33,220 nt of DNA from a virus (lineage: Duplodnaviria; Heunggongvirae; Uroviricota; Caudoviricetes). The position numbers and the translations under genes were made by a program. Below, piece by piece: positions 9,973 to 26,182 of the stretch. Below the pieces are notes generated by a model. That model did no database searches and was not told where the DNA came from. It saw only the letters and a list, made by a program, of their open reading frames with translations. The DNA is taken from positions 1-33,220 of the IMG/VR virus record IMGVR_UViG_2874920711_000012, one strand, 5' to 3'. Positions within the stretch are counted from its first letter, which is position 1. Each line of letters starts with the position of its first letter.

Positions 9973-10051
9973 CTTTAATCATCTGAGAATATAAGATAGA
10001 AATCAATTGATTAGCATAATTTATTTTGAATTTTCATGTTAATAAATAAAA

Positions 10052-10073
10052 GGCCAGTTATTGGCCTTTTATC
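10052..10073. terminator. Bidirectional intrinsic terminator between S and the cargo gene at 10075-10494
   Basis: Hairpin GGCCAGTTATTGGCC flanked by A/T runs on both sides (…ataaataaaa GGCCAgttaTTGGCC ttttatc…). Confidence 0.6.
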
Positions 10074-10074
10074 A

Positions 10075-10494
10075 TTACTTTCCATTTTTTAATGAATTGA
10101 TTAACGATGCTATTTGCTCAATGCCATCAAATGTAGATGGTATCTTATCATCGGATAGCATGATGTTTGAAAATACTACGTCTTCGAATTTTGAAAGCGC
10201 TTCCGGATTGTTTTTCCTTATCTCTGAGGAATAGTCGCTATAACTCTGAATGAACTGACAAAGGCTCTTTCTGAGTTCTATTTGCATAATCTGAGTTCGT
10301 AACGATATATGATTTAGCAGTACAACTCTAAAGTAATACATGAAAATCAATGTAACTGATGCAAAAGGTAGTGCTGACATAAAATATGTGGCAGCATTTG
10401 TCGTTTCGAGAGCTGGTAATTTATGCATTCCATAGTATATCAGCTGGGAGGGAATGATTATAGCCAAGATGATAAGAATTATTCTTGATAGCAT
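10075..10494 (-). CDS. Hypothetical two-TM membrane protein (139 aa), downstream gene of the S-V cargo module
   Basis: Intact ORF on the strand opposite the phage late genes; two N-terminal hydrophobic segments (RIILIILAIIIPSQLIYYGM and YFMSALPFASVTLIFMYYF); AT-rich. Function unknown. Confidence 0.6.
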   Translation of the reverse strand: MLSRIILIILAIIIPSQLIYYGMHKLPALETTNAATYFMSALPFASVTLIFMYYFRVVLLNHISLRTQIMQIELRKSLCQFIQSYSDYSSEIRKNNPEALSKFEDVVFSNIMLSDDKIPSTFDGIEQIASLINSLKNGK

Positions 10495-10580
10495 GATTGC
10501 ACTTTCTTTTTTTTGCCAAGTGAATTAAAGCCTTCAAACAATCCAACAAAATTAAATGCGACCTCATACCCTTTTAATGA

Positions 10581-11147
10581 CTATTTGATTGACTCTATTT
10601 TGGCATGTTGCTCCTTTAAGAAGGAGTCGCACTTTTCGAAAAATTGACGCCCTTCGTTTAAACTATCAATGTATTTTTTATATGTGTCAACATTGCTGGA
10701 GCTTAAAACTTCTTTAACCATTGCTAATGGCAGTTCTCTAAGAGAAAAGTCTATCTGTGCTCTGCTCCGCTCATCGAATTCATTATAGTTATACAGAGCA
10801 AAATCCTTGATGGTTCTTAGTGGTGAAAAGTGAGACTCTATTTCCGGAGAGAGAATGCTTGGTTCAATGATAAAGCTAAAAAAGCAAGTGAATATAAGGT
10901 TGATGCTGTTGTTATCTTCTCCCTTTTTTCTTAAGAAACTTTTAAAGGTGTCGCCAATCATAGCAATGTTGTGCTGGGATTTTTTGTCCCAATCTTCAGG
11001 GTTTTCGGAAATGAAGTTTATTGCTTGAGCAATTATTTTGTTTCTGTTTGATTCAAAGTTTGTGCCGGGAGTCAGCGTGTTCAAAAAGACCAGATAATCT
11101 TTGAACAATTCTTTCATTGTTTCTGACGAGAAAAAGTAAGTACTCAT
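10581..11147 (-). CDS. Hypothetical soluble protein (~188 aa), upstream gene of the S-V cargo module
   Basis: AT-rich ORF co-oriented with 10075-10494, 86 bp upstream of it. Start chosen at MSTYFF (11147); the ORF track extends to 11243, which would overlap the V start. No recognised motif. Confidence 0.5.
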   Translation of the reverse strand: MSTYFFSSETMKELFKDYLVFLNTLTPGTNFESNRNKIIAQAINFISENPEDWDKKSQHNIAMIGDTFKSFLRKKGEDNNSINLIFTCFFSFIIEPSILSPEIESHFSPLRTIKDFALYNYNEFDERSRAQIDFSLRELPLAMVKEVLSSSNVDTYKKYIDSLNEGRQFFEKCDSFLKEQHAKIESIK

Positions 11148-11233
11148 AATGGATTTTGTTGTCCCTTGTTGTTCTGTGCACCAGAAATCGTGGTGTGATT
11201 TACTTCGAGATTGTACAGAATCATTATTATCGA

Positions 11234-11863
11234 ATGAATGCACAATACAATGAAATTCTTCGCTTTATACGCAATATGATTCGCACTGGCATTATTGTCG
11301 AAACCGACCTTAATGCCGGTCGCTGCCGTGTGCAGACCGGCGGCATGTGCACCGACTGGCTTCAGTGGCTGACCCATCGCGCCGGACGTTCGCGCACATG
11401 GTGGGCACCTTCCGTGGGGGAACAGGTGCTGATTCTGGCCGTGGGCGGTGAACTCGACACGGCGTTCGTTCTGCCGGGGATTTATTCCTGCGATAACCCC
11501 GCGCCGTCTGCGTCGGCGGATGCCCTGCATATCCGTTTCCCTGACGGGGCGGTGATTGAGTATGAACCCGAAACCAGTGCACTCACGGTAAGCGGAATTA
11601 AAACGGCCAGCGTGACGGCTTCTGATTCTGTTACTGCCACGGTGCCGGTGGTCATGGTGAAAGCGTCAACCCGCATCACCCTGGACACCCCGGAGGTGGT
11701 CTGCACCAACAGACTGATTACCGGCACGCTGGAAGTGCAGAAGGGCGGGACGATGCGCGGCAACATTAAACATACCGGCGGTGAACTCTCATCAAACGGT
11801 AAGGTACTGCATACCCATAAACACCCCGGCGACAGCGGCGGCACAACCGGGAGTCCTCTATGA
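11234..11863 (+). CDS. V: Baseplate spike protein gpV
   Basis: …LRFIRNMIRTGIIVETDLNAGRCRVQTGGMCTDWLQW… P2 gpV-like; start at ATG 11234. Confidence 0.9.
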   Translation: MNAQYNEILRFIRNMIRTGIIVETDLNAGRCRVQTGGMCTDWLQWLTHRAGRSRTWWAPSVGEQVLILAVGGELDTAFVLPGIYSCDNPAPSASADALHIRFPDGAVIEYEPETSALTVSGIKTASVTASDSVTATVPVVMVKASTRITLDTPEVVCTNRLITGTLEVQKGGTMRGNIKHTGGELSSNGKVLHTHKHPGDSGGTTGSPL

Positions 11864-15759: not shown

Positions 15760-16287
15760 ATGCAGCATTTAAAAAATATTACGGCGGGTAATCCAAAAAC
15801 GGTTGAACAATATCAATTGACAAAGGACTTTGATGTTGTCTGGTTTTTTTCAGAAGATGGTAAGAACTGGTACGAAGAACAAAAGTATTTTGCTGATGAC
15901 ACGATAAAAATAGCGTACGACAAAGATAATATCATCCACTATGTGGAAAAGGATGTGACAGCTATCAGACCGGATGGATTAAGTGTTGTTGAAGTGGCGG
16001 ATATTACTGCTAACCGACGGGCGGACATTTCAGGGAACTGGATGTTTAAGGACGGCAAAGTGATTAAACGCGTTTATACGGCAGAGGAATTACAGCAGCA
16101 GGCAGAAATTCGGAAAGCCAGACTTCTTGCAGATGCTGAATCCGTGATTTTGCCGCTGGAGCGCGCGGTCAGACTGAACATGGCAACAGATGAGGAGCGT
16201 AGCCGACTGGAATCATGGGAACGCTACAGCGTTCTGGTCAGTCGTGTGGATCCTGCAAATCCTGAATGGCCGGAAATGCCGCAATAA
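15760..16287 (+). CDS. G: Tail fiber assembly chaperone gpG
   Basis: 175-aa ORF immediately after H, P2 gpG-like. Confidence 0.85.
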
Positions 16288-16337: not shown

Positions 16338-16372
16338 TCCGCTCTGTGCCAGGAGCAGACATTACCAACGTT
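16338..16372. repeat. Copy A of a ~35-nt conserved motif (GC-rich stem with loop TGTGCCAG) that recurs at 20342-20376
   Basis: TCCGCTCTGTGCCAGGAGCAGACATTACCAACGTT versus TTCGCTTTGTGCCAGGAGCGGACGTTGCCAGCATT, about 80% identity; also pairs with an upstream arm TGGCACAGAG (16310-16319 with 16342-16351). Confidence 0.5.
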
Positions 16373-16644
16373 ATGACCCTCGATTACATCAAAGAGCCCT
16401 ATAGCCGAAACCTGCACCATAGCCATCTCTGTAGAATTCGTCCTAGGGGCTTTTAACAGACCTAGTTGTATGGATCGGAAGGAAATATTAAAGCTCAAGG
16501 CGTCAGTCCAGTGCTGTCCTGTTTGCTTACCACACGAAAGAGTGCTGCTTGTACCTGCTAACTAATGGTATGCGGAGTGAGGGGGCGGGTAGAACCAAAA
16601 GCACTTACTACGTGTGGCGCTCTCCTGGAAGAGGAGACGTCGAA

Positions 16645-16731
16645 GTGATAACGCTAACAACAGTCTTACTGGTGATGCAAATAATGCTAGCTGGTCTGGT
16701 TGTCATCAAGCAACTGACCGGACGCCCGTAA
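16645..16731 (+). CDS. Candidate small hydrophobic peptide (28 aa, GTG start), type I toxin-like
   Basis: GAGGAG Shine-Dalgarno 8 nt upstream of GTG; peptide MITLTTVLLVMQIMLAGLVVIKQLTGRP; an intrinsic terminator hairpin follows and is split by IS2. Speculative. Confidence 0.3.
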   Translation: MITLTTVLLVMQIMLAGLVVIKQLTGRP

Positions 16732-16865
16732 GGGATGGAGGAACTTGATTAAAGGCAGGGGGTTACCTCCCCTGCTAGACTGGCCCCTGAATCTCCAGAC
16801 AACCAGTATCACTTAAATAAGTGATAGTCTTAATACTAGTTTTTAGACTAGTCATTGGAGTACAG

Positions 16866-17231
16866 ATGATTGATGTCTTAGGGCCGGAGAAACGCAGACG
16901 GCGTACCACACAGGAAAAGATCGCAATTGTTCAGCAGAGCTTTGAACCGGGGATGACGGTCTCCCTCGTTGCCCGGCAACATGGTGTAGCAGCCAGCCAG
17001 TTATTTCTCTGGCGTAAGCAATACCAGGAAGGAAGTCTTACTGCTGTGGCCGCCGGAGAACAGGTTGTTCCTGCCTCTGAACTTGCTGCCGCCATGAAGC
17101 AGATTAAAGAACTCCAGCGCCTGCTCGGCAAGAAAACGATGGAAAATGAACTCCTCAAAGAAGCCGTTGAATATGGACGGGCAAAAAAGTGGATAGCGCA
17201 CGCGCCCTTATTGCCCGGGGATGGGGAGTAA
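16866..17231 (+). CDS. insC: IS2 InsC (orfA)
   Basis: [56 protein letters not shown]… IS3-family orfA. Confidence 0.85.
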
Positions 17232-18094
17232 GCTTAGTCAGCCGTTGTCTCCGGGTGTCGCGTGCGCAGTTGCACGTCATTCTCAGACGAACCGATGACT
17301 GGATGGATGGCCGCCGCAGTCGTCACACTGATGATACGGATGTGCTTCTCCGTATACACCATGTTATCGGAGAGCTGCCCACGTATGGTTATCGTCGGGT
17401 ATGGGCGCTGCTTCGCAGACAGGCAGAACTTGATGGTATGCCTGCGAACAATGCCAAACGTGTTTACCGGATCATGCGCCAGAATGCGCTGTTGCTTGAG
17501 CGAAAACCTGCTGTACCGCCATCGAAACGGGCACATACAGGCAGAGTGGCCGTGAAAGAAAGCAATCAGCGATGGTGCTCTGACGGGTTCGAGTTCTGCT
17601 GTGATAACGGAGAGAGACTGCGTGTCACGTTCGCGCTGGACTGCTGTGATCGTGAGGCACTGCACTGGGCGGTGACTACCGGCGGCTTCAACAGTGAAAC
17701 AGTACAGGACGTCATGCTGGGAGCGGTGGAACGCCGCTTCGGCAACGATCTTCCGTCGTCTCCAGTGGAGTGGCTGACGGATAATGGTTCATGCTACCGG
17801 GCTAATGAAACACGCCAGTTCGCCCGGATGTTGGGACTTGAACCGAAGAACACGGCGGTGCGGAGTCCGGAGAGTAACGGAATAGCAGAGAGCTTCGTGA
17901 AAACGATAAAGCGTGACTACATCAGTATCATGCCCAAACCAGACGGGTTAACGGCAGCAAAGAACCTTGCAGAGGCGTTCGAGCATTATAACGAATGGCA
18001 TCCGCATAGTGCGCTGGGTTATCGCTCGCCACGGGAATATCTGCGGCAGCGGGCTTGTAATGGGTTAAGTGATAACAGATGTCTGGAAATATAG
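17189..18094 (+). CDS. insD: IS2 InsD (orfB, DDE transposase domain)
   Basis: 301-aa ORF overlapping insC in another frame, typical IS3-family orfA/orfB arrangement. Confidence 0.85.
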
Positions 18095-18180
18095 GGGCAA
18101 ATCCACCTGCCTTTTTTCGTTTCTGCGCAAGTTAGCTCTGTTATTATAATCCTTACTCACACTGTAAGGACATAGTTCAA

Positions 18181-18309
18181 ATGACTGAATGGCTTAATGC
18201 ACATTTTGGTGCAGACGCAGCTACCTATCTTAGCTTATTAGTCGGCGTACTGGCACTGTTTGGTATTGGGGCGGTGTTACATATAGAATCAGACAGCAAA
18301 ACAACATAA
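18181..18309 (+). CDS. Small TM peptide ORF (42 aa); possibly the N-terminal part of one gene with 18339-18797
   Basis: ATG at 18181 with AAGGA upstream and a TATAAT at 18145-18150; hydrophobic stretch LSLLVGVLALFGIGAVL. The downstream ORF frame is open back to 18232, so a single base difference in 18232-18306 would fuse the two. Confidence 0.4.
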   Translation: MTEWLNAHFGADAATYLSLLVGVLALFGIGAVLHIESDSKTT

Positions 18310-18338
18310 AACAGAAGGCAAAGAAAACCGAGGGTGAT

Positions 18339-18797
18339 GTGAACCAGGCCGGGCGGGATATTAATCAGACCACCAACGTTTACCACACATCCAATGAATC
18401 TACTGAGGACCCTGTAAAAAAAAAGCAAGATGAACATGATCTGAAGATAATCGACCAGATCCTTGAATTGCTGCCTTATGAGGATACTACTCAATGGGTT
18501 GAGCAGAGCTACCTGAGCGGTATACGGCAAGATGTTTGCTTAAACATTGAAAAAGCTGAAAAATTTAGCGGTGAAAAGTATCGGTTATTCAATACTGAAG
18601 TGAATGGTGCGAAAGACGCTTTTTTGGACGCTATGACCGCATACGTAGATAGTACGCTACCATTTATGAGTGTTGATTACCCGAACAGAAAGCCAGTGAT
18701 GCTAAGCCTTCCCCATGACTGGAAGAGTAAGAGTGTTGAATCGGAGGCAAACTTCCGCTTTCATCAGCAAAATGTGCGTGAAACATCGGGGGGATGA
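18339..18797 (+). CDS. Hypothetical protein (152 aa as called)
   Basis: AT-rich ORF with no recognised motif; followed by a terminator hairpin that is split by the IS10-like element. Confidence 0.5.
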   Translation: MNQAGRDINQTTNVYHTSNESTEDPVKKKQDEHDLKIIDQILELLPYEDTTQWVEQSYLSGIRQDVCLNIEKAEKFSGEKYRLFNTEVNGAKDAFLDAMTAYVDSTLPFMSVDYPNRKPVMLSLPHDWKSKSVESEANFRFHQQNVRETSGG

Positions 18798-18955
18798 TTG
18801 CGCGCTATGAGGATTTTGTCAGGACATTTAAGGCTCATGGATTCATAAGCGATAAACTGTAAAGGCGCAGTGGGTCAGCGAACACCGCAACGACAGAACC
18901 GCGTAAGCGGTAAAATCAGCTTGTTAACTGGCGAGTTTATAGCCGTCCCTCCGGG

Positions 18956-20255
18956 CTGAGGGATCCCCACAAAATTACTGCTAATAAACCAGCACCATAT
19001 TTCGGTAGGTTCTGGACAGATGGTTTAGAACTGTGCTCAGTACTGTTCGTCTTAAAATAAGTGGCGAGTGTCGAAGAACATTCTTCGCTAACGTCAGATA
19101 TGAGATAACCCGCCGGGATTTAATGCTGTTAGCCTGATATTTCAGGTGTAACCCTTTATTTTCAGCGTGATAACCGAGTAACCACATTACGATAGTGCTC
19201 AACGTTGCCAGCAGACTCAGAACCAGAATTCTTCCTGTTGAACGACTTTTGCTGGCCCGAAGACCAAATCCGAAGCGCCCGTTCTTTTCATCACGAAAGT
19301 TTTGCTCTATCTGCATTCGCCGACTGTATAACTTGATGATTTCTCGCGCTCTGAAGTCATTTGTACTGCTGAAGATCAACCAGGCTTCTTTTGCTGATTT
19401 GCTCTGTTCTTTGTCTGTTTTGTTTAAACCACTCTGACCTTTCGAACGTTTCTTTTTTCGCCCTTTTGCCGATTTCTTATAGGTGTAAAAATGCCCCGGA
19501 TGCTTTTTTTCCTTTCTTTAACCAGCCTTCCAGCCCCCATATATTCCGGTGTTTTACATTCAGGGCTATCCGACACTTTTAACCATCTTTCAGGCGCGTT
19601 ATCGAGGCAATACTGAACGTTATTTCTGATCCGACCAATAAAATCCCAGCCCAGAGAAGTAATATGGTGAAACCATGCGCTCTGAAATCCAGCATCCGTG
19701 ACAATAATAACCCTGGCATCGGGGGGCAGGGATTGAGCAAGGGAATCAAGGAAATCATGTTGTATCAATGGATTATTTTGTTTTTCAGAAGGAACAACCT
19801 TACTCAATAACGGAATGGAACGCCCGTCACACAGAAGGCTGGCACGAAGAACATGATGCTCCTGGGAGGGATAGCCACTCCAGTCTACGGCTATTACACA
19901 TAAAGATAACTGCCGTGTCAGCATTGAAGTGATATTCCTGAAAATCATTGGAATATCGCGATGGAGCGCCTCATTACCCATGAGGCGATCAATACGTTTG
20001 CTCTTATTCTTAACTTGTGCATTACCCGGGAAAAAACGTCCGATACTGGTCAGCGTCAGAGATGCTCCGTTGATTAACGCCACTGTGGCATCCATCAGGG
20101 CATTTTGTCGGTACTGATGAAATGGTGCTAAGGCATCCCGGAAGAAATTCTGACATACTTTATGAACAGGCATAGCAGTGATCTCATTGAATTGTTGGCA
20201 CAAATCAGTAGATCACATAATGCTATGTCTGTCTCGTTTTCTGGGAATTCCTCAG
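18956..20255 (-). mobile_element. IS10-like element (IS4 family, ~1300 bp) with 9-bp target-site duplication CCCTCCGGG
   Basis: Imperfect terminal inverted repeats CTGAGGGATCCCCACAAAA (18956-) and complement of CTGAGGAATTCCCAGAAAA (-20255); direct repeats at 18947-18955 and 20256-20264; inserted in a terminator hairpin. Confidence 0.75.
18981..20203 (-). CDS. IS10-like DDE transposase, split into two ORFs (apparent frameshift near 19380-19425)
   Basis: N-part has KRIDRLMGN, IAVDWSG and IVTDAGF motifs; C-part has the YREK signature (YSRRMQIEQNFRDEK); clear colinearity with IS10 transposase as recalled. Confidence 0.75.
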
Positions 20256-20341
20256 CCCTCCGGGGCGGCTTTTTTATGACTATAATCGACAGAATCACCT
20301 GAACGTCCAGGTGGGTTTCCCTGACAGGACGTCAAGGAATG

Positions 20342-20376
20342 TTCGCTTTGTGCCAGGAGCGGACGTTGCCAGCATT
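20342..20376. repeat. Copy B of the ~35-nt conserved motif seen at 16338-16372
   Basis: See copy A; lies in the intergenic region ~150 bp upstream of the 20526 ORF. Confidence 0.5.
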
Positions 20377-20525
20377 GAGTTTTCAGTTTTCAAAGGTATA
20401 TCTTTAGATTTAGTTCACTTAGAATGAGCGTGTTAAAGTTTTCGGTTATGTGAGTATATTGAACATAACAAATAAACAATAATTTTTGTATTCCATTTAG
20501 GATATAAAAAAGAGGGATTTGAGTT

Positions 20526-21311
20526 ATGTACGATTATAGTTTTTTACTTACTCCATCTACAGGATTTGTTAAAGGATTATGTGGAGTTTGGTCGAATGAT
20601 TTCTCTATAAATGATGATTCTGACTCTGATTTAGGGCAAACAGATATTCATTTACTTTCATCTCCTCATTTGAATATCATATCCGACCCAAATGAATTGG
20701 CTTCCAAGTTAAAAGGTTTGTTGATGCTCATGAACGGCGCACTTAGCGTTCTTTATGGTTTTGAAAGATATCAATCTTTTGGTCCTCTTTCTATTTCTGG
20801 AAGTGAAGGCATTAATTACTCGGAAATATGCGGCTTTAAATCAATGGATGTAACTCAGGTAAACCCCTTTAATTTCCATGACATACAGCAACCACACCCT
20901 CGCGCTGATAATTTTTCACGATTAATTAATTTATCATCTAAACATGAATCCTTACGTGTTGTTTTAGGTATGTGTGCCTTAGGTTATGATTGGGTTAATC
21001 TTTATCGTTTGTGGGAAACAATTAGAGAATATGTATATGATAAATATGTGAAAGGTATACTAAATTTCCCCGACGCTTATAAAGGCAAGAAATATCAGAG
21101 AGATAAAGTAATTAGCATGGCTTTTAATATTGATGAAAAGGAAATCAGCAGATTCACGGGCACTGCTAATAGCTTTGAACTGTTAGGGTATCTTGCGAGA
21201 CATGGAAAGGGAAGTTCCGGAGGGATATTAAAAAATCCGATGTCAAGAGTTGACGCAAGCATTTTCGTACACAAAGCAACTTACAAATATTGTAAGTTAT
21301 TTTTGATGTAA
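20526..21311 (+). CDS. Hypothetical protein (261 aa), AT-rich cargo gene
   Basis: ATG with AGAGGG Shine-Dalgarno 8 nt upstream; low GC; no recognised motif; convergent with the HNH-domain gene. Confidence 0.6.
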   Translation: MYDYSFLLTPSTGFVKGLCGVWSNDFSINDDSDSDLGQTDIHLLSSPHLNIISDPNELASKLKGLLMLMNGALSVLYGFERYQSFGPLSISGSEGINYSEICGFKSMDVTQVNPFNFHDIQQPHPRADNFSRLINLSSKHESLRVVLGMCALGYDWVNLYRLWETIREYVYDKYVKGILNFPDAYKGKKYQRDKVISMAFNIDEKEISRFTGTANSFELLGYLARHGKGSSGGILKNPMSRVDASIFVHKATYKYCKLFLM

Positions 21312-21413
21312 GTAAAAAGTTGAAGCTATAATACTCAAAGTATCGAAAACTACGTTCGTCGTGCACTCGAAAACAATATGCTTATTGTGTCTGCACTAAT
21401 TACTCAAGGTCCG

Positions 21414-21450
21414 AGAAAAATGGCGAAGCTCATCTTTTTCAGGCTTCGCC
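21414..21450 (-). terminator. Intrinsic terminator for the minus-strand HNH-domain gene
   Basis: Hairpin GGCGAAGC…GCTTCGCC (21422-21450) followed on the minus strand by a U-run (plus-strand A-run 21416-21420), just past the gene's stop at 21473. Confidence 0.55.
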
Positions 21451-21472
21451 AACTTGAGTTATTGGTTAAAAT

Positions 21473-22826
<1,354 letters not shown>

Positions 22827-22898
22827 TGGAGCACCTGTGTTGTTCTGAGGTGAGCATATCACCTCTGTTCAGGTGGCCAAATTCAGTGTGCCACTTCA

Positions 22899-23475
22899 AC
22901 TCGACGATCAACGATAGCGGAGACTCAGGTGCAATCTCGGAGCGAATCGCCGTAAGAGAGAGTCGGAGCTCCTTCAAAGAATCCGAGACTCGTGCTGGAT
23001 CCTCTTGAGCATATGGCAGATAAAGAGAACTCTTGTCTTCCAATAAATGGATCAACCGCAGAGCAATTTTCTCGTCTGGGCGATGCGATAGAAATTGAAA
23101 CATTAGCCTCTTTCCTCCCTCCAAGCACTCCTTCATTAGTGATTCGTGGTCACGTTTCCATTTTCGCAAATACTCGGCGGGGTAGCCCATACCGCCATTC
23201 TTATCAACTAAATCAGCACAAGCTCCGCACAACCATATAGCATTTTTTATGCTCTTCCGCTCTGTTTCTGACTGAGACATGTCATAGCGCGGTCCGCCAG
23301 GGCTCGCCGCGCAGATATGCGCCGCCTCACCCGTCTTGATAGAAAGATTTTCCGCCAATTGATCCGGGCCGATTGTTACCCTATGACAAGAGGGATTGCT
23401 ACAAATATATGTAGCGCGCTCTGCTACCTTACCTACAACGCTTGGAGGAAAGTTGTGCCTATTTGTCTTGGTCAT
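22899..23475 (-). pseudogene. 5' part of an HNH-nuclease-domain gene (~250 aa when rejoined), interrupted by IS911
   Basis: N-terminal region has CSNPSC, AAHICAASPGGPRY and NAIWLCGACADLV, an HNH-like arrangement; the ORF-track C-terminus beyond 22899 is IS911-derived. Confidence 0.6.
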
Positions 23476-23499
23476 AAAAGTTATGCTTCTTTGTTTTTT

Positions 23500-24597
23500 T
23501 CATCTATGTGGGGAGAATAAAATCATACTTTTTATATCTGATCCTAAATAGCTGCGCTTAATACCGCTACACTTTTGCCAGTCCATGTTTGCCTCCGGGA
23601 ATGGGCTGACGGTTTCCATAAAATGGCGAACTTTTTTCAACAGTTGCCACATTGAGCGGCACTGATGATTACGCGTTATTGTGTCGTGAAGTGCCTGCCA
23701 TAGCCGTTCAACATGATTCACCCATGGCGAGTAAACCGGCTGATAAATGACCCTGAACTTCGGGTTCTCCTTCAGCCAGCTCTGTGTTTCCCGGCTTTTG
23801 TGGATAATGTAGTTGTCCACGATCAGCGTGATGGTTTTCGCCCGACGGTATGTCGCTTTAAGCCGCTTCAGCAGGCTGATGAACAGCGCCGAACTTTTGC
23901 TGTTGCCGCCCACATAGCTGACTTTACCTGTCCCGCTGTGCAGCGCTCCGGCCAGATAATATTTTTCATTCTGTCCCGGCGTGACCACCCGTTTTTGCTG
24001 TCCGCGCAGTTGCCAGTCCGCACCGATTTTGGGATGAAGATGGATATCCACTTCATCTTCATAAAAGACCGGATGCTCTGCGCTGCATTCGTCCAGTGCT
24101 TTATGGATTGCTGCCATCTTTTCATCTTTATGCGGGTCACGGATACGCAGAGTTGGCGCAGCCCTTCGCCACACAATCCCCGCAGACGGCAACCAGCGGC
24201 GAACGGTTCCGGCATTTAACTGGCAACCGGTTATCTCATTGATTTTTATTGCCAGCAGTTCTGTACTCCAGCGTGAACGCTGGTAGACAAAGTCGCCGGG
24301 AGAATGTTTTACCAGCTCACGTAACAGTGTGCAGATATGCTCAAACGGCCAGCGACGGGCACGCCCGGCAGGTAATGATTTCAGTCCCTCAACACCCGAC
24401 TGCGTGAACCAGTTAATCCAGCGTCCAACAGAGGAACGGGCGCAGCAGAGCGTTCTGGCAACGTCGCTGACACGGTCGCCCCGGTGCAGCATCAGCATGG
24501 CAGTCAGTCTGCGGGCATAATTTTTATCGTGTGTTTTATGGATGGCTTTCTGCATCAGGCGTCGTTCGTCACGGGAAATTGGTGCTATGATCGGCAT
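23500..24597 (-). CDS. IS630 transposase (ORF as called runs past the IS end)
   Basis: MPIIAPISRDERRLMQKAIHKTHDKNYARRLTAMLMLHRGDRVSDVARTLCCARSSVGRW… matches IS630 transposase as recalled; the last ~15 codons lie outside the element. Confidence 0.85.
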   Translation of the reverse strand: MPIIAPISRDERRLMQKAIHKTHDKNYARRLTAMLMLHRGDRVSDVARTLCCARSSVGRWINWFTQSGVEGLKSLPAGRARRWPFEHICTLLRELVKHSPGDFVYQRSRWSTELLAIKINEITGCQLNAGTVRRWLPSAGIVWRRAAPTLRIRDPHKDEKMAAIHKALDECSAEHPVFYEDEVDIHLHPKIGADWQLRGQQKRVVTPGQNEKYYLAGALHSGTGKVSYVGGNSKSSALFISLLKRLKATYRRAKTITLIVDNYIIHKSRETQSWLKENPKFRVIYQPVYSPWVNHVERLWQALHDTITRNHQCRSMWQLLKKVRHFMETVSPFPEANMDWQKCSGIKRSYLGSDIKSMILFSPHR

Positions 24598-24698
24598 TGC
24601 TCAGTCCGGTTGGTGATTTGTTTTGATTTGGCGATTGATCAGATCGCACAATCCGGGCTAAGTTCCCTCAAAATGATCTACTATTCCGCGCAGCTATT
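23547..24698 (-). mobile_element. IS630 (1152 bp) inserted at a CTAG target with TA duplication
   Basis: Terminal inverted repeats AATAGCTGCGC… at both ends; TA at 23545-23546 and 24699-24700, flanked by C and G. Confidence 0.85.
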
Positions 24699-24993
24699 TA
24701 GGTCTGACCAGCAACCTATTGATCAAAAAACCAAGATATTAGCTAAAAAAATCAGCATACTTGAGACCAAGCTCAATGTCCGCTCCTCGCTCAAAGCAGA
24801 CTGTCAGATTTGATAGCATTTGGGCTATGTAAATTGTCAGGCGGAAAATGAGTGAGTACAAATCAGGACAGGCGGGCGAATTGCCCGCATTTTCTTTATC
24901 TGTTGTTTCATCCCCTGACCAGCCAGGTCAAATAGCGTCTCATGCTCTGCACAACAGAAAATAGTTGCACCCATTAACCACGGAGTTAAACGG

Positions 24994-26182
24994 ATGAGTG
25001 ACTATCATCACGGCGTGCAGGTGCTGGAGATTAACGACGGCACCCGCGTCATTTCCACCGTATCCACGGCCATTGTCGGCATGGTCTGCACGGCCAGCGA
25101 TGCAGATGCGGAAACCTTCCCCTCAATAAACCGGTGCTGATTACCAATGTGCAGAGCGCAATTGCAAAGGCCGGTAAAAAAGGCACGCTGGCGGCGTCGT
25201 TACAGGCCATCGCTGACCAGTCAAAACCGGTCACCGTTGTTGTGCGCGTGGAAGACGGCACCGGCGACGACGAAGAAACGAAGCTCGCGCAGACCGTTTC
25301 CAATATCATCGGCACCACCGACGAAAACGGTCAGTACACCGGACTGAAAGCCCTGCTGGCGGCGGAGTCGGTAACCGGTGTTAAACCGCGCATTCTCGGT
25401 GTGCCGGGACTGGATACCAAAGAGGTGGCTGTTGCACTGGCATCAGTCTGTCAGAAGCTGCGCGCTTTCGGGTATATCAGCGCATGGGGCTGTAAAACCA
25501 TTTCCGAGGTGAAAGCCTACCGCCAGAATTTCAGCCAGCGTGAGCTGATGGTCATCTGGCCGGATTTCCTCGCATGGGATACGGTCACCAGTACCACCTC
25601 CACCGCGTATGCCACCGCCCGTGCGCTGGGGCTGCGCGCTAAAATCGACCAGGAGCAGGGCTGGCATAAAACGCTGTCCAACGTCGGGGTGAACGGTGTT
25701 ACCGGCATCAGCGCGTCCGTATTCTGGGATTTGCAGGAGTCCGGCACCGATGCTGACCTGCTTAACGAGTCAGGCGTCACAACGCTGATTCGCCGTGACG
25801 GTTTCCGCTTCTGGGTAACCGTACCTGCTCTGATGACCCGCTGTTCCTCTTTGAAAACTACACCCGCACCGCGCAGGTGCTGGCCGACACGATGGCTGAG
25901 GCGCACATGTGGGCGGTGGACAAGCCCATCACCGCAACGCTGATTCGCGACATCGTTGACGGCATCAATGCCAAATTCCGTGAGCTGAAAACAAACGGCT
26001 ATATCGTGGATGCGACCTGCTGGTTCAGCGAAGAATCCAACGATGCGGAAACCCTCAAGGCCGGAAAACTGTATATCGACTACGACTATACACCGGTGCC
26101 TCCTCTCGAAAACCTGACCCTGCGCCAGCGTATTACCGATAAATACCAGGCAAATCTGGTCACCTCGGTTAACAGCAATTAA
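24994..26182 (+). pseudogene. FI: Tail sheath protein gpFI with two apparent frameshifts (near 25125 and 25820)
   Basis: [43 protein letters not shown] then a stop; adding one C to the C-run restores …[11 protein letters not shown]…; a second break near GFRFW. Confidence 0.85.

What the first reader, a model, noticed from the sequence alone, without database searches (positions are those of the whole stretch)
20526..21311. Uncharacterised 261-aa AT-rich protein convergent with the HNH-domain gene
This is an intact ORF with a good RBS and the lowest GC in the locus. It has no motif I recognise. It lies tail-to-tail with the HNH-domain gene and shares the hairpin terminator between them. It may be a stand-alone defence gene or a partner of the HNH protein.
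Basis: partly seen in the sequence, partly recalled or inferred. Interest (0 to 1): 0.6.

Follow-up and report, generated by a model that had tools for sequence, protein, structure and literature searches.

The report
Known single-gene phage defence DS-29
This intact 261-codon gene is a near-identical copy (260 of 261 residues) of DS-29, a one-gene anti-phage defence protein already shown by experiment to protect E. coli, so the finding is real but not new; only how the protein works is still open.

Summary
The ORF at 20526-21311 (+) is real: 261 aa, GC 0.35, under purifying selection. It differs at one residue (I246N) from WP_061089765.1. That protein is "DS-29" (working id HEP3) of the DefensePredictor study (Science 2026, PMC13092281). 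Cloned alone with its own promoter in E. coli MG1655, DS-29 cut plating of T4 (10^5), Bas60 (10^6.3) and Candy (10^3.7).

The stand-alone defence reading is therefore right and already published. The "partner of the HNH gene" reading is not supported. The gene sits in a 3.4-kb cargo cassette at the variable cargo site of a decaying P2-like prophage, between the tail-fibre and tail-sheath genes. Four IS elements cut the cassette. The HNH gene is split and the upstream gene is frameshifted; only this gene is intact. Homologues at 45-90% identity occur without any HNH gene.

The parts
20526..21311 (+). DS-29 allele: 261-aa single-gene anti-phage defence protein (stop included)
   Evidence: ORF. 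It is 260/261 identical to WP_061089765.1 (DS-29/HEP3), with the single difference I246N (sequence taken from Table S8). The exact protein is on record in 109 contigs as 'hypothetical protein [Enterobacteriaceae]'.
20348..20525 (+). Conserved upstream leader/promoter region that travels with the gene
   Evidence: About 178 bp upstream are conserved between this window, Klebsiella, Pantoea agglomerans and Proteus copies, in unrelated flanks, and the similarity stops at this left boundary. The consensus scan did not pinpoint a promoter. The IS4-family insertion ends at 20255, upstream of this block.
20512..20516 (+). Shine-Dalgarno GAGGG, 9 nt before the ATG
   Evidence: Read directly from the sequence.
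20526..20909 (+). N-terminal alpha/beta domain (aa 1-128), fold without a confident relative; candidate sensor or regulatory domain (inferred)
20910..21308 (+). C-terminal HEPN-like four-helix bundle (aa 129-261)
21198..21203 (+). Codons for Arg225-His226, the invariant dyad at the end of predicted helix 3 (putative active site)
   Evidence: Conserved in 61/61 of a family alignment at 18-61% identity. The position matches where HEPN domains carry Rx4-6H (PMC3710099).
21421..21451 (-). Hairpin (10-bp stem, 11-nt loop) followed by UUUUUCU on the minus strand: intrinsic terminator of the HNH gene
   Evidence: Folds. The strict scan does not call it because the loop exceeds 8 nt. There is no U-tract after it on the + strand.
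21473..21651 (-). Context, not part of the system: C-terminal fragment of the HNH gene (DUF6650-like region)
   Evidence: Maps to L001 13174-13352. The precomputed annotation of the fused ORF in L028, which has the same gene layout as this window, gives 'DUF6650 (weak)'.
22899..23475 (-). Context: N-terminal HNH fragment of the same gene
   Evidence: Maps to L001 13350-13926. PADLOC hits: PDC-M68A 5e-24, CBASS HNH effectors, SduA N-terminus.
21652..22898 (-). Context: IS3-family element (IS911 by its ends, named from memory) splitting the HNH gene, 3-bp duplication ACT
   Evidence: HTH_Tnp_1 and rve domains.
18956..20255 (-). Context: IS4-family (IS10-like) element, 9-bp duplication CCCTCCGGG, ending 270 bp upstream of the target's ATG
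   Evidence: DDE_Tnp_1 domain.
18181..18862 (+). Context: upstream 227-aa gene ('geneA'), a pseudogene here through two 1-bp deletions
   Evidence: Intact copies are in L001 and L002.
16354..24801 (.). Extent of the 3.4-kb cargo cassette (geneA, DS-29, HNH) as broken up by four IS elements, between the tail-fibre assembly gene and the tail-sheath gene
   Evidence: blastn against the uninterrupted cassette L001 10694-14099. Prophage context.

Best explanation
The ORF is an allele of DS-29, a self-sufficient one-gene anti-phage defence protein. It is carried here as cargo at the variable site of a degraded P2-like prophage, between the tail-fibre and tail-sheath genes.

Shown:
- It is near-identical to the experimentally validated protein.
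- It occurs as a stand-alone gene across mobile elements.
- It is under purifying selection.
- It is intact where its neighbours are broken.

Predicted from structure: a two-domain protein. The N-terminal alpha/beta domain has no clear relative. The C-terminal four-helix bundle has HEPN topology. At the end of helix 3 it carries an invariant Arg225-His226-Gly227. It also has an invariant acidic residue (164) in helix 2 and a near-invariant Asn215.

Inferred mechanism (about 50% confidence): the N-terminal domain keeps the HEPN-like domain off until it senses a phage cue. The HEPN-like domain, probably as a dimer, then cuts RNA without metal. This stops translation and aborts the infection.

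The neighbouring HNH gene and the upstream 227-aa gene are separate cargo, not partners.
For: Identity and function:
- The protein is 260/261 identical to DS-29/HEP3.
- Table S6 lists HEP3 as a single CDS with defensive=TRUE, named DS-29.
- Table S7 gives -log10 EOP of 6.34 for Bas60, 5.0 for T4, 3.70 for Candy and 1.26 for RB69.
- The result was replicated.
- Constructs carried the transcription unit with its native promoter on a low-copy plasmid in MG1655.

Stand-alone occurrence:
- Homologues sit alone next to integrases, in an ICE, in prophages, on a Pantoea plasmid, and in Bacillus, cyanobacterial and other genomes. No partner gene recurs.
- The gene plus about 178 bp upstream moves as one unit.

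Family: 474 clusters at 50% identity reach E<=1e-3, and nearly all are 230-290 aa.

Fold:
- AF2 model, pLDDT 85, pTM 0.85.

Motif geometry:
- R225/H226 are conserved in 61/61, D/E164 in 61/61 and N215 in 59/61 members.
- The HEPN motif lies at the end of helix 3, the residue after the Arg is typically N, D or H, and an acidic residue sits in helix 2 (PMC3710099).

The authors also filed DS-29 under HEPN (HHpred, PF18867, residues 157-252, probability 0.59).
Against: - The canonical Rx4-6H motif is not present. No His is conserved 5-7 residues after Arg225.
- No HEPN Pfam model matches any of 61 family members.
- hhalign against two HEPN defence proteins finds nothing.
- Foldseek against the PDB finds nothing significant.
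- The published HHpred probability is only 0.59.
- No catalytic mutant, RNase assay or abortive-infection test of DS-29 is reported in the paper text I read.
- The defence phenotype was measured on the N246 allele, not this I246 allele. Position 246 is variable in the family.
Confidence: 0.8

Rival explanations
1. Two-gene system: the 261-aa protein and the convergent HNH (DUF6650-like) nuclease work together, for example one as sensor or signal source and the other as effector.
For: - In E. coli the two genes occur in exactly the same 15 of 5426 complete genomes, at fixed spacing.
- The same pair, with the same 160-bp spacer, recurs in Klebsiella in at least three different flanks.
- Across these two hosts the proteins are 90% (target) and 96% (HNH) identical.
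- DUF6650 is the signal-sensing effector domain of type VI Thoeris (bioRxiv 10.64898/2025.12.03.692087). An HNH-DUF6650 protein would therefore need a signal source.
Against: - DS-29 alone defends MG1655.
- The pair is convergent, so not co-transcribed.
- The 90%-identical Pantoea copy has no HNH ORF downstream.
- Homologues at 45-66% identity have none.
- tblastn of the HNH protein finds 18 plasmid records covering at least 80% of it. tblastn of DS-29 hits only one plasmid, a different one, and the three HNH loci I inspected show no DS-29 gene.
- The HNH gene is broken in this window and in two related IS-rich loci, while the target stays intact.
- All E. coli copies are at least 99% identical, so 15/15 is one cassette and not 15 independent observations.
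Confidence: 0.07
2. The C-terminal bundle is a non-catalytic HEPN-like or nucleotide-binding module, like the substrate-binding domains attached to nucleotidyltransferases. DS-29 then defends by something other than RNA cleavage, such as binding or sequestering a nucleotide or a phage factor.
For: - The distal catalytic His of Rx4-6H is missing.
- HEPN families that lose the motif are described as likely substrate-binding (PMC3710099).
Against: - An absolutely invariant Arg-His-Gly sits at the HEPN active-site position, together with an invariant helix-2 acidic residue and Asn215. That is the conservation pattern of an active site.
- HEPN families with relocated His residues are known.
- No nucleotidyltransferase partner is nearby in any locus inspected.
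Confidence: 0.25
3. Toxin-antitoxin pair with the upstream 227-aa gene (geneA) as antitoxin or regulator.
For: geneA lies directly upstream on the same strand in the E. coli/Shigella cassette. Its cluster has a positive DefensePredictor score of 6.6.
Against: - geneA is frameshifted here while the target is intact.
- DS-29 was cloned without geneA and the strain was viable.
- The genes are 354 bp apart.
- E. coli SE11 has geneA followed by different cargo. The 65-70 bp flank downstream of geneA recurs in 18 E. coli genomes that lack DS-29, but only SE11 was inspected.
- The Klebsiella, Pantoea and Proteus copies lack geneA.
Confidence: 0.02
4. An ordinary phage structural or housekeeping gene of the P2-like prophage.
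For: It lies inside a prophage, between tail genes.
Against: - There is no tblastn match in 50,697 phage genomes and no PHROG hit.
- The same prophage site carries gapS4a/b in another strain.
- The gene also occurs in islands, an ICE and a plasmid.
- Its GC is 17 points below that of the window as a whole.
Confidence: 0.01

Closest known systems
DS-29 (working id HEP3, WP_061089765.1), DefensePredictor study, Science 2026, PMC13092281
   Same: 260/261 identical. Same length and the same single-gene unit. E. coli copies of this gene (WP_001375234.1) are listed in that study's prediction table with log-odds 10.9.
   Different: One substitution (I246 here, N246 in the tested allele) at a variable position. 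Here the gene sits in an IS-ridden prophage, with an IS4-family element 270 bp upstream.
HEPN superfamily RNases (HEPN-MNT toxins, Csm6/Csx1, Cas13, AbiD/F-type proteins; Anantharaman et al. 2013, PMC3710099)
   Same: - A predicted four-helix bundle with an insert between helices 2 and 3.
- An invariant Arg at the end of helix 3, followed by a polar residue (His).
- An invariant acidic residue in helix 2.
- A defence context.
   Different: - There is no Rx4-6H motif. The only conserved His is directly next to the Arg.
- No HEPN sequence model matches.
- The N-terminal domain is not CARF, SAVED or MNT.
- No antitoxin gene is present.
HEC-08 / DS-38-type single-gene HEPN (DUF3644) defence proteins
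   Same: These are also one-gene, HEPN-annotated defence cargo. An HEC-08 gene lies next to the cassette in E. coli BE311.
   Different: No detectable sequence similarity to DS-29, and a different domain make-up.
Type VI Thoeris effector ThsG (DUF6650), as a comparison for the neighbouring HNH gene only
   Same: The neighbour is annotated as DUF6650 in precomputed Pfam hits and in 4 of 15 RefSeq records.
   Different: - There is no TIR gene in the cassette.
- My own hmmscan does not reproduce the DUF6650 hit. The best result is E=0.032, on a plasmid homologue.
- Whatever the neighbour is, it is not needed by DS-29.

Membership tests
DS-29 single-gene defence system (DefensePredictor) | Sequence identity to the validated protein WP_061089765.1 | tested here: met
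   260/261 identical; the only difference is I246N (sequence).
DS-29 single-gene defence system (DefensePredictor) | Confers phage resistance as a single gene | not testable with these tools
   Published for the N246 allele: -log10 EOP of 5.0 for T4, 6.34 for Bas60 and 3.70 for Candy, replicated. Not measured for this allele.
DS-29 single-gene defence system (DefensePredictor) | Occurs without a conserved partner gene | tested here: met
   The neighbours differ in the Klebsiella aerogenes, Pantoea, Proteus, Bacillus and cyanobacterial loci and in an unnamed prophage-like locus (L008).
HEPN superfamily | Four-helix up-down bundle with an insert between helices 2 and 3 | tested here: met
HEPN superfamily | Rx4-6H motif at the end of helix 3 | tested here: not met
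   Arg225 is invariant and correctly placed. The only conserved His is at +1 (His226), and none is conserved at +5 to +7 (definition).
HEPN superfamily | Conserved acidic residue in helix 2 near the motif | tested here: met
   Position 164 is D or E in 61/61 sequences and lies in helix 156-175.
HEPN superfamily | Match to a HEPN sequence model | tested here: not met
   No Pfam hit for the target or for 61 relatives. hhalign against two HEPN defence proteins gives probability below 1%. The published HHpred probability to PF18867 is 0.59.
HEPN superfamily | Metal-independent RNase activity | not testable with these tools
   Needs biochemistry.
CARF/SAVED-HEPN effectors (Csm6/Csx1-like) | N-terminal CARF or SAVED ligand-binding fold | tested here: not met
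Two-gene system with the HNH/DUF6650-like neighbour (Thoeris-VI-like) | Conserved co-occurrence of the two genes across divergent homologues | tested here: not met
   Linked only in the closely related E. coli/Klebsiella cassette. Absent in Pantoea at 90% identity and in the 45-66% homologues. HNH homologues occur alone.
Two-gene system with the HNH/DUF6650-like neighbour (Thoeris-VI-like) | Signal-producing TIR partner adjacent | tested here: not met
   No TIR gene in the cassette. One Klebsiella locus (L018) has a TIR gene two genes upstream.
Cargo at the variable site of P2-like prophages between the tail-fibre and tail-sheath genes | Lies between the tail-fibre assembly gene and the tail-sheath gene, at a site that carries different defence genes in related prophages | tested here: met
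   Tail-fibre and Caudo_TAP genes lie upstream and the sheath gene downstream. The same site holds gapS4a/gapS4b in E. coli ECE218. Calling this the P2 'hotspot' rests on my own knowledge of the literature.

The most novel reading that the evidence does not exclude
DS-29 may not be a conventional HEPN RNase. The family-wide Arg-His-Gly dyad has replaced Rx4-6H. It is joined to an N-terminal alpha/beta domain with no structural relative. Together these could define a new active-site variant, or a non-nuclease activity, coupled to a new phage-sensing fold. A more remote reading is that, in the enterobacterial cassette, it feeds a signal to the adjacent HNH/DUF6650-like nuclease.
Probability: 0.25. 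Interest if true: 0.5.

Novelty: already known. Interest (0 to 1): 0.27.

Why it matters
As a discovery it adds little: the gene's defence function is already published.

What this locus does add:
- Natural evidence that DS-29 works, or at least persists, on its own. It is the only intact gene in a cassette hit by four IS elements, in several IS-rich lineages.
- The gene is a mobile unit of one ORF plus about 178 bp.
- It is prophage cargo that could protect the lysogen against T-even-type phages.
- A concrete, testable active-site proposal (R225, H226, D/E164, N215) for a defence protein whose mechanism is not yet reported.

Tried and rejected
- Sequence libraries: Pfam, NCBIfam, PHROGs and PADLOC give nothing for the target. 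Pfam gives nothing for 61 relatives. PADLOC gives one AbiLii hit at E=0.006 among 61 proteins, which I treat as chance.
- A PDB search with a sequence profile finds nothing.
- Foldseek against the PDB finds nothing below E=0.7. The afdb50 library was unavailable.
- tblastn against 50,697 phage genomes finds no match.
- hhalign of the family profile against the DS-28 HEPN nuclease and against HEC-08 shows no similarity. This is uninformative, given how divergent HEPN families are.
- Partnership with the HNH gene or with geneA is rejected on co-occurrence and on the published single-gene result.
- Promoter: the consensus scan found no convincing sigma-70 site in the conserved leader, so I do not name one.
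- DUF6650 on the HNH neighbour: my hmmscan could not reproduce it, so I leave it as 'DUF6650-like, mixed support'.

Full report
**Observation.** The ORF at 20526..21311 (+) exists as described: ATG start, 261 codons plus stop. A GAGGG Shine-Dalgarno sits at 20512-20516, 9 nt upstream. Its GC is 0.349 against 0.516 for the window, and GC3 is 0.28. That is the lowest GC within the cargo region, but the 500-nt bin at 10001-10500 is lower still at 0.330. At this composition, 261 stop-free codons have a probability of about 4e-9 per start. The protein is conserved at 45-90% identity in Dickeya, Klebsiella, Serratia, Citrobacter, Providencia, Proteus and Pantoea. dN/dS is 0.14-0.36. It is a real gene under purifying selection.

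**Surroundings.** The window is a P2-like prophage next to trhP/yegQ. The region between the tail-fibre assembly gene (15760-16287) and the tail-sheath gene (from 25134) holds a 3.4-kb cassette. That cassette is uninterrupted in E. coli, for example at L001 10694-14099.

In the window, four insertion sequences cut it (family assignments from the domains, specific IS names from my memory of the terminal repeats):
- an IS3-family element (IS2) at 16776-18101;
- an IS4-family, IS10-like element at 18956-20255, with a 9-bp duplication CCCTCCGGG;
- an IS3-family element (IS911) at 21652-22898, with a 3-bp duplication ACT;
- an IS630-family element at 23547-24698.

The intact cassette has three genes: a 227-aa gene ("geneA", +), the 261-aa gene (+) and a 250-aa HNH gene (-). 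In the window, geneA (18181-18862) carries two 1-bp deletions. The HNH gene is split into 22899-23475 and 21473-21651. Only the 261-aa gene is intact.

It has a U-run only on the minus strand, so it is the HNH gene's terminator and not a canonical shared one.

In a related P2-like prophage, E. coli ECE218, the same site carries gapS4a/gapS4b. From my own knowledge, this is the tail-fibre/sheath defence hotspot of P2-like phages.

**What it is.** No curated library recognises the protein. The literature does.
- Table S8 of the DefensePredictor paper (PMC13092281, Science 2026) prints the sequence of WP_061089765.1, working id HEP3. It differs from the window protein only at residue 246 (I here, N there).
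- Table S6 lists HEP3 as a single CDS with defensive=TRUE, named DS-29.
- Table S7 gives -log10 EOP of 6.34 for Bas60, 5.0 for T4, 3.70 for Candy and 1.26 for RB69.
- Table S8 marks the result as replicated.
- The constructs carried each transcription unit with its native promoter on a low-copy plasmid in E. coli MG1655.
- The E. coli copy WP_001375234.1 is also in the paper's prediction table, with log-odds 10.9.

The gene is therefore a validated one-gene defence system. Position 246 is variable in the family, and N occurs naturally in other members.

**Partner or not.**
- In E. coli, the 261-aa gene and the HNH gene occur in the same 15 of 5426 complete genomes.
- In Klebsiella, the pair recurs at the same spacing in at least three different flanks.
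- All E. coli copies are at least 99% identical, so this is one cassette.
- A 90%-identical copy on a Pantoea agglomerans plasmid has no HNH ORF downstream.
- The 66%, 62% and 45% homologues sit alone in a prophage, an ICE and a Klebsiella aerogenes island.
- Distant relatives in Bacillus, a cyanobacterium and other genomes share no partner gene.
- tblastn of the HNH protein against plasmids finds 18 records covering at least 80% of it. They include pKPN5 and plasmids of Moellerella and Ketogulonicigenium.
- DS-29 hits only one plasmid, a different one, and the three HNH loci I inspected show no DS-29 gene.
- About 178 bp upstream of the ATG (20348-20525) is conserved across the window and the Klebsiella, Pantoea and Proteus copies. 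Similarity ends there, so the mobile unit is this leader plus the ORF.
- Two other IS-rich loci with the same prophage cargo site (L031, L033) also keep this gene intact, with the HNH gene destroyed.
- In E. coli SE11, geneA is followed by different cargo that includes a DUF2971 protein. The flank downstream of geneA recurs in 18 E. coli genomes that lack DS-29.

The partner reading is not supported.

**Family and structure.** A profile search of 1.84 billion representatives finds 474 clusters at E<=1e-3, nearly all 230-290 aa. None of the 61 I sampled hits Pfam.

Residues conserved across those 61 sequences, which are 18-61% identical to the target:
- Arg225 and His226: 61/61
- Gly227: 58/61
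- Asp/Glu164: 61/61
- Asn215: 59/61
- Ser46 and Gly71: 59/61 each

The AF2 model (pLDDT 85.3, pTM 0.85) has an N-terminal alpha/beta part (strands 5-9, 27-30, 42-45 and 89-94; long helix 55-77). The C-terminal part is helical, with helices at 141-150, 156-175, 204-225 and 241-260 and an insert at 176-203.

The HEPN review (PMC3710099) makes three relevant points:
- The residue after the Arg is usually N, D or H.
- A conserved acidic residue lies in helix 2.

Arg225-His226 at the end of helix 204-225, and D/E164 in helix 156-175, fit that geometry. The distal His is missing. The domain is therefore HEPN-like in fold and layout, but it fails the canonical motif test and every sequence-model test. 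The authors' own HEPN label rests on an HHpred probability of 0.59 to PF18867.

**Mechanism.** Shown in the published work: the near-identical allele blocks T4-type and other phages by 10^4-10^6. Shown here: the gene is self-contained and mobile.

Inferred: the HEPN-like domain is an RNase whose active site uses Arg225, His226, D/E164 and perhaps Asn215. The N-terminal domain senses infection or holds the nuclease off. The outcome is translation arrest and abortive infection. I put this at about 50%.

**Verdict.** The stand-alone defence reading is right but already published, so novelty is "already known" and interest is low. What remains open is the mechanism, for which the mutants listed under next steps would be decisive.

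Noticed in passing
window 22899-23475 and 21473-21651 (-), split by the IS at 21652-22898: The neighbouring 250-aa gene pairs an N-terminal HNH domain with a C-terminal region of uncertain assignment.
- HNH domain: PADLOC PDC-M68A 5e-24, plus CBASS HNH effectors.
- C-terminal region: precomputed Pfam hits and 4 of 15 RefSeq records call it DUF6650, the 2'cADPR-sensing effector domain of type VI Thoeris. My own hmmscan does not reproduce this; the best result is E=0.032, on a pKPN5 homologue.
- No TIR partner is in the cassette, so it may be an orphan or stand-alone effector.
   Followed up: partly
L018 3117-3899 (Klebsiella, GCA_054849875.1): In one Klebsiella locus a TIR-domain gene (TIR_2, 2.8e-27) lies two genes upstream of the DS-29/HNH pair. 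It could be the missing signal producer for the HNH/DUF6650-like protein. It is absent from the otherwise similar locus L020.
   Followed up: no
window 18181-18862 (+): The upstream 227-aa gene (geneA) is a pseudogene here, through two 1-bp deletions. It matches no family library. Its cluster has a DefensePredictor log-odds of 6.6. In E. coli SE11 the same gene is followed by different cargo that includes a DUF2971 protein. A related DUF2971 protein in K. aerogenes matches the PADLOC candidate PDC-S31. geneA may therefore mark the edge of a variable defence slot in CP4-type islands.
   Followed up: partly
window 16354-24801: Four IS elements of three families (IS3 twice, IS4, IS630) sit inside a 3.4-kb cassette, each with clean target-site duplications. 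Related loci L031 and L033 show different IS patterns at the same site. The IS load suggests a Shigella-type genome. The exact protein is recorded under accession EDX36414.1, and a partial cluster member is labelled Shigella dysenteriae.
   Followed up: partly
window 10000-11300 (-): ORFs 10075-10494 and 10581-11243: A second low-GC island (0.33-0.36) lies between the prophage's virion-morphogenesis gene and its baseplate gene. It holds two minus-strand ORFs (139 and 220 aa) with no significant Pfam hit and no PADLOC hit. E. coli ECE218 carries an unrelated 260-aa ORF at the same site. This is probably another variable cargo slot.
   Followed up: partly
window 25134-25943 (+): The tail-sheath gene appears truncated or split here: 269 aa plus a 91-aa fragment in L028, the locus with the same layout as the window, against 396 aa in L031 and L033. 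The prophage is therefore probably defective.
   Followed up: no
L002 14184-15284 (E. coli BE311): In the CP4-type island copy, the gene next to the cassette is a 366-aa HEC-08/DUF3644 HEPN protein (PADLOC 5e-174). It has the same length as the validated DS-38 protein, so this island stacks several single-gene defence candidates.
   Followed up: partly
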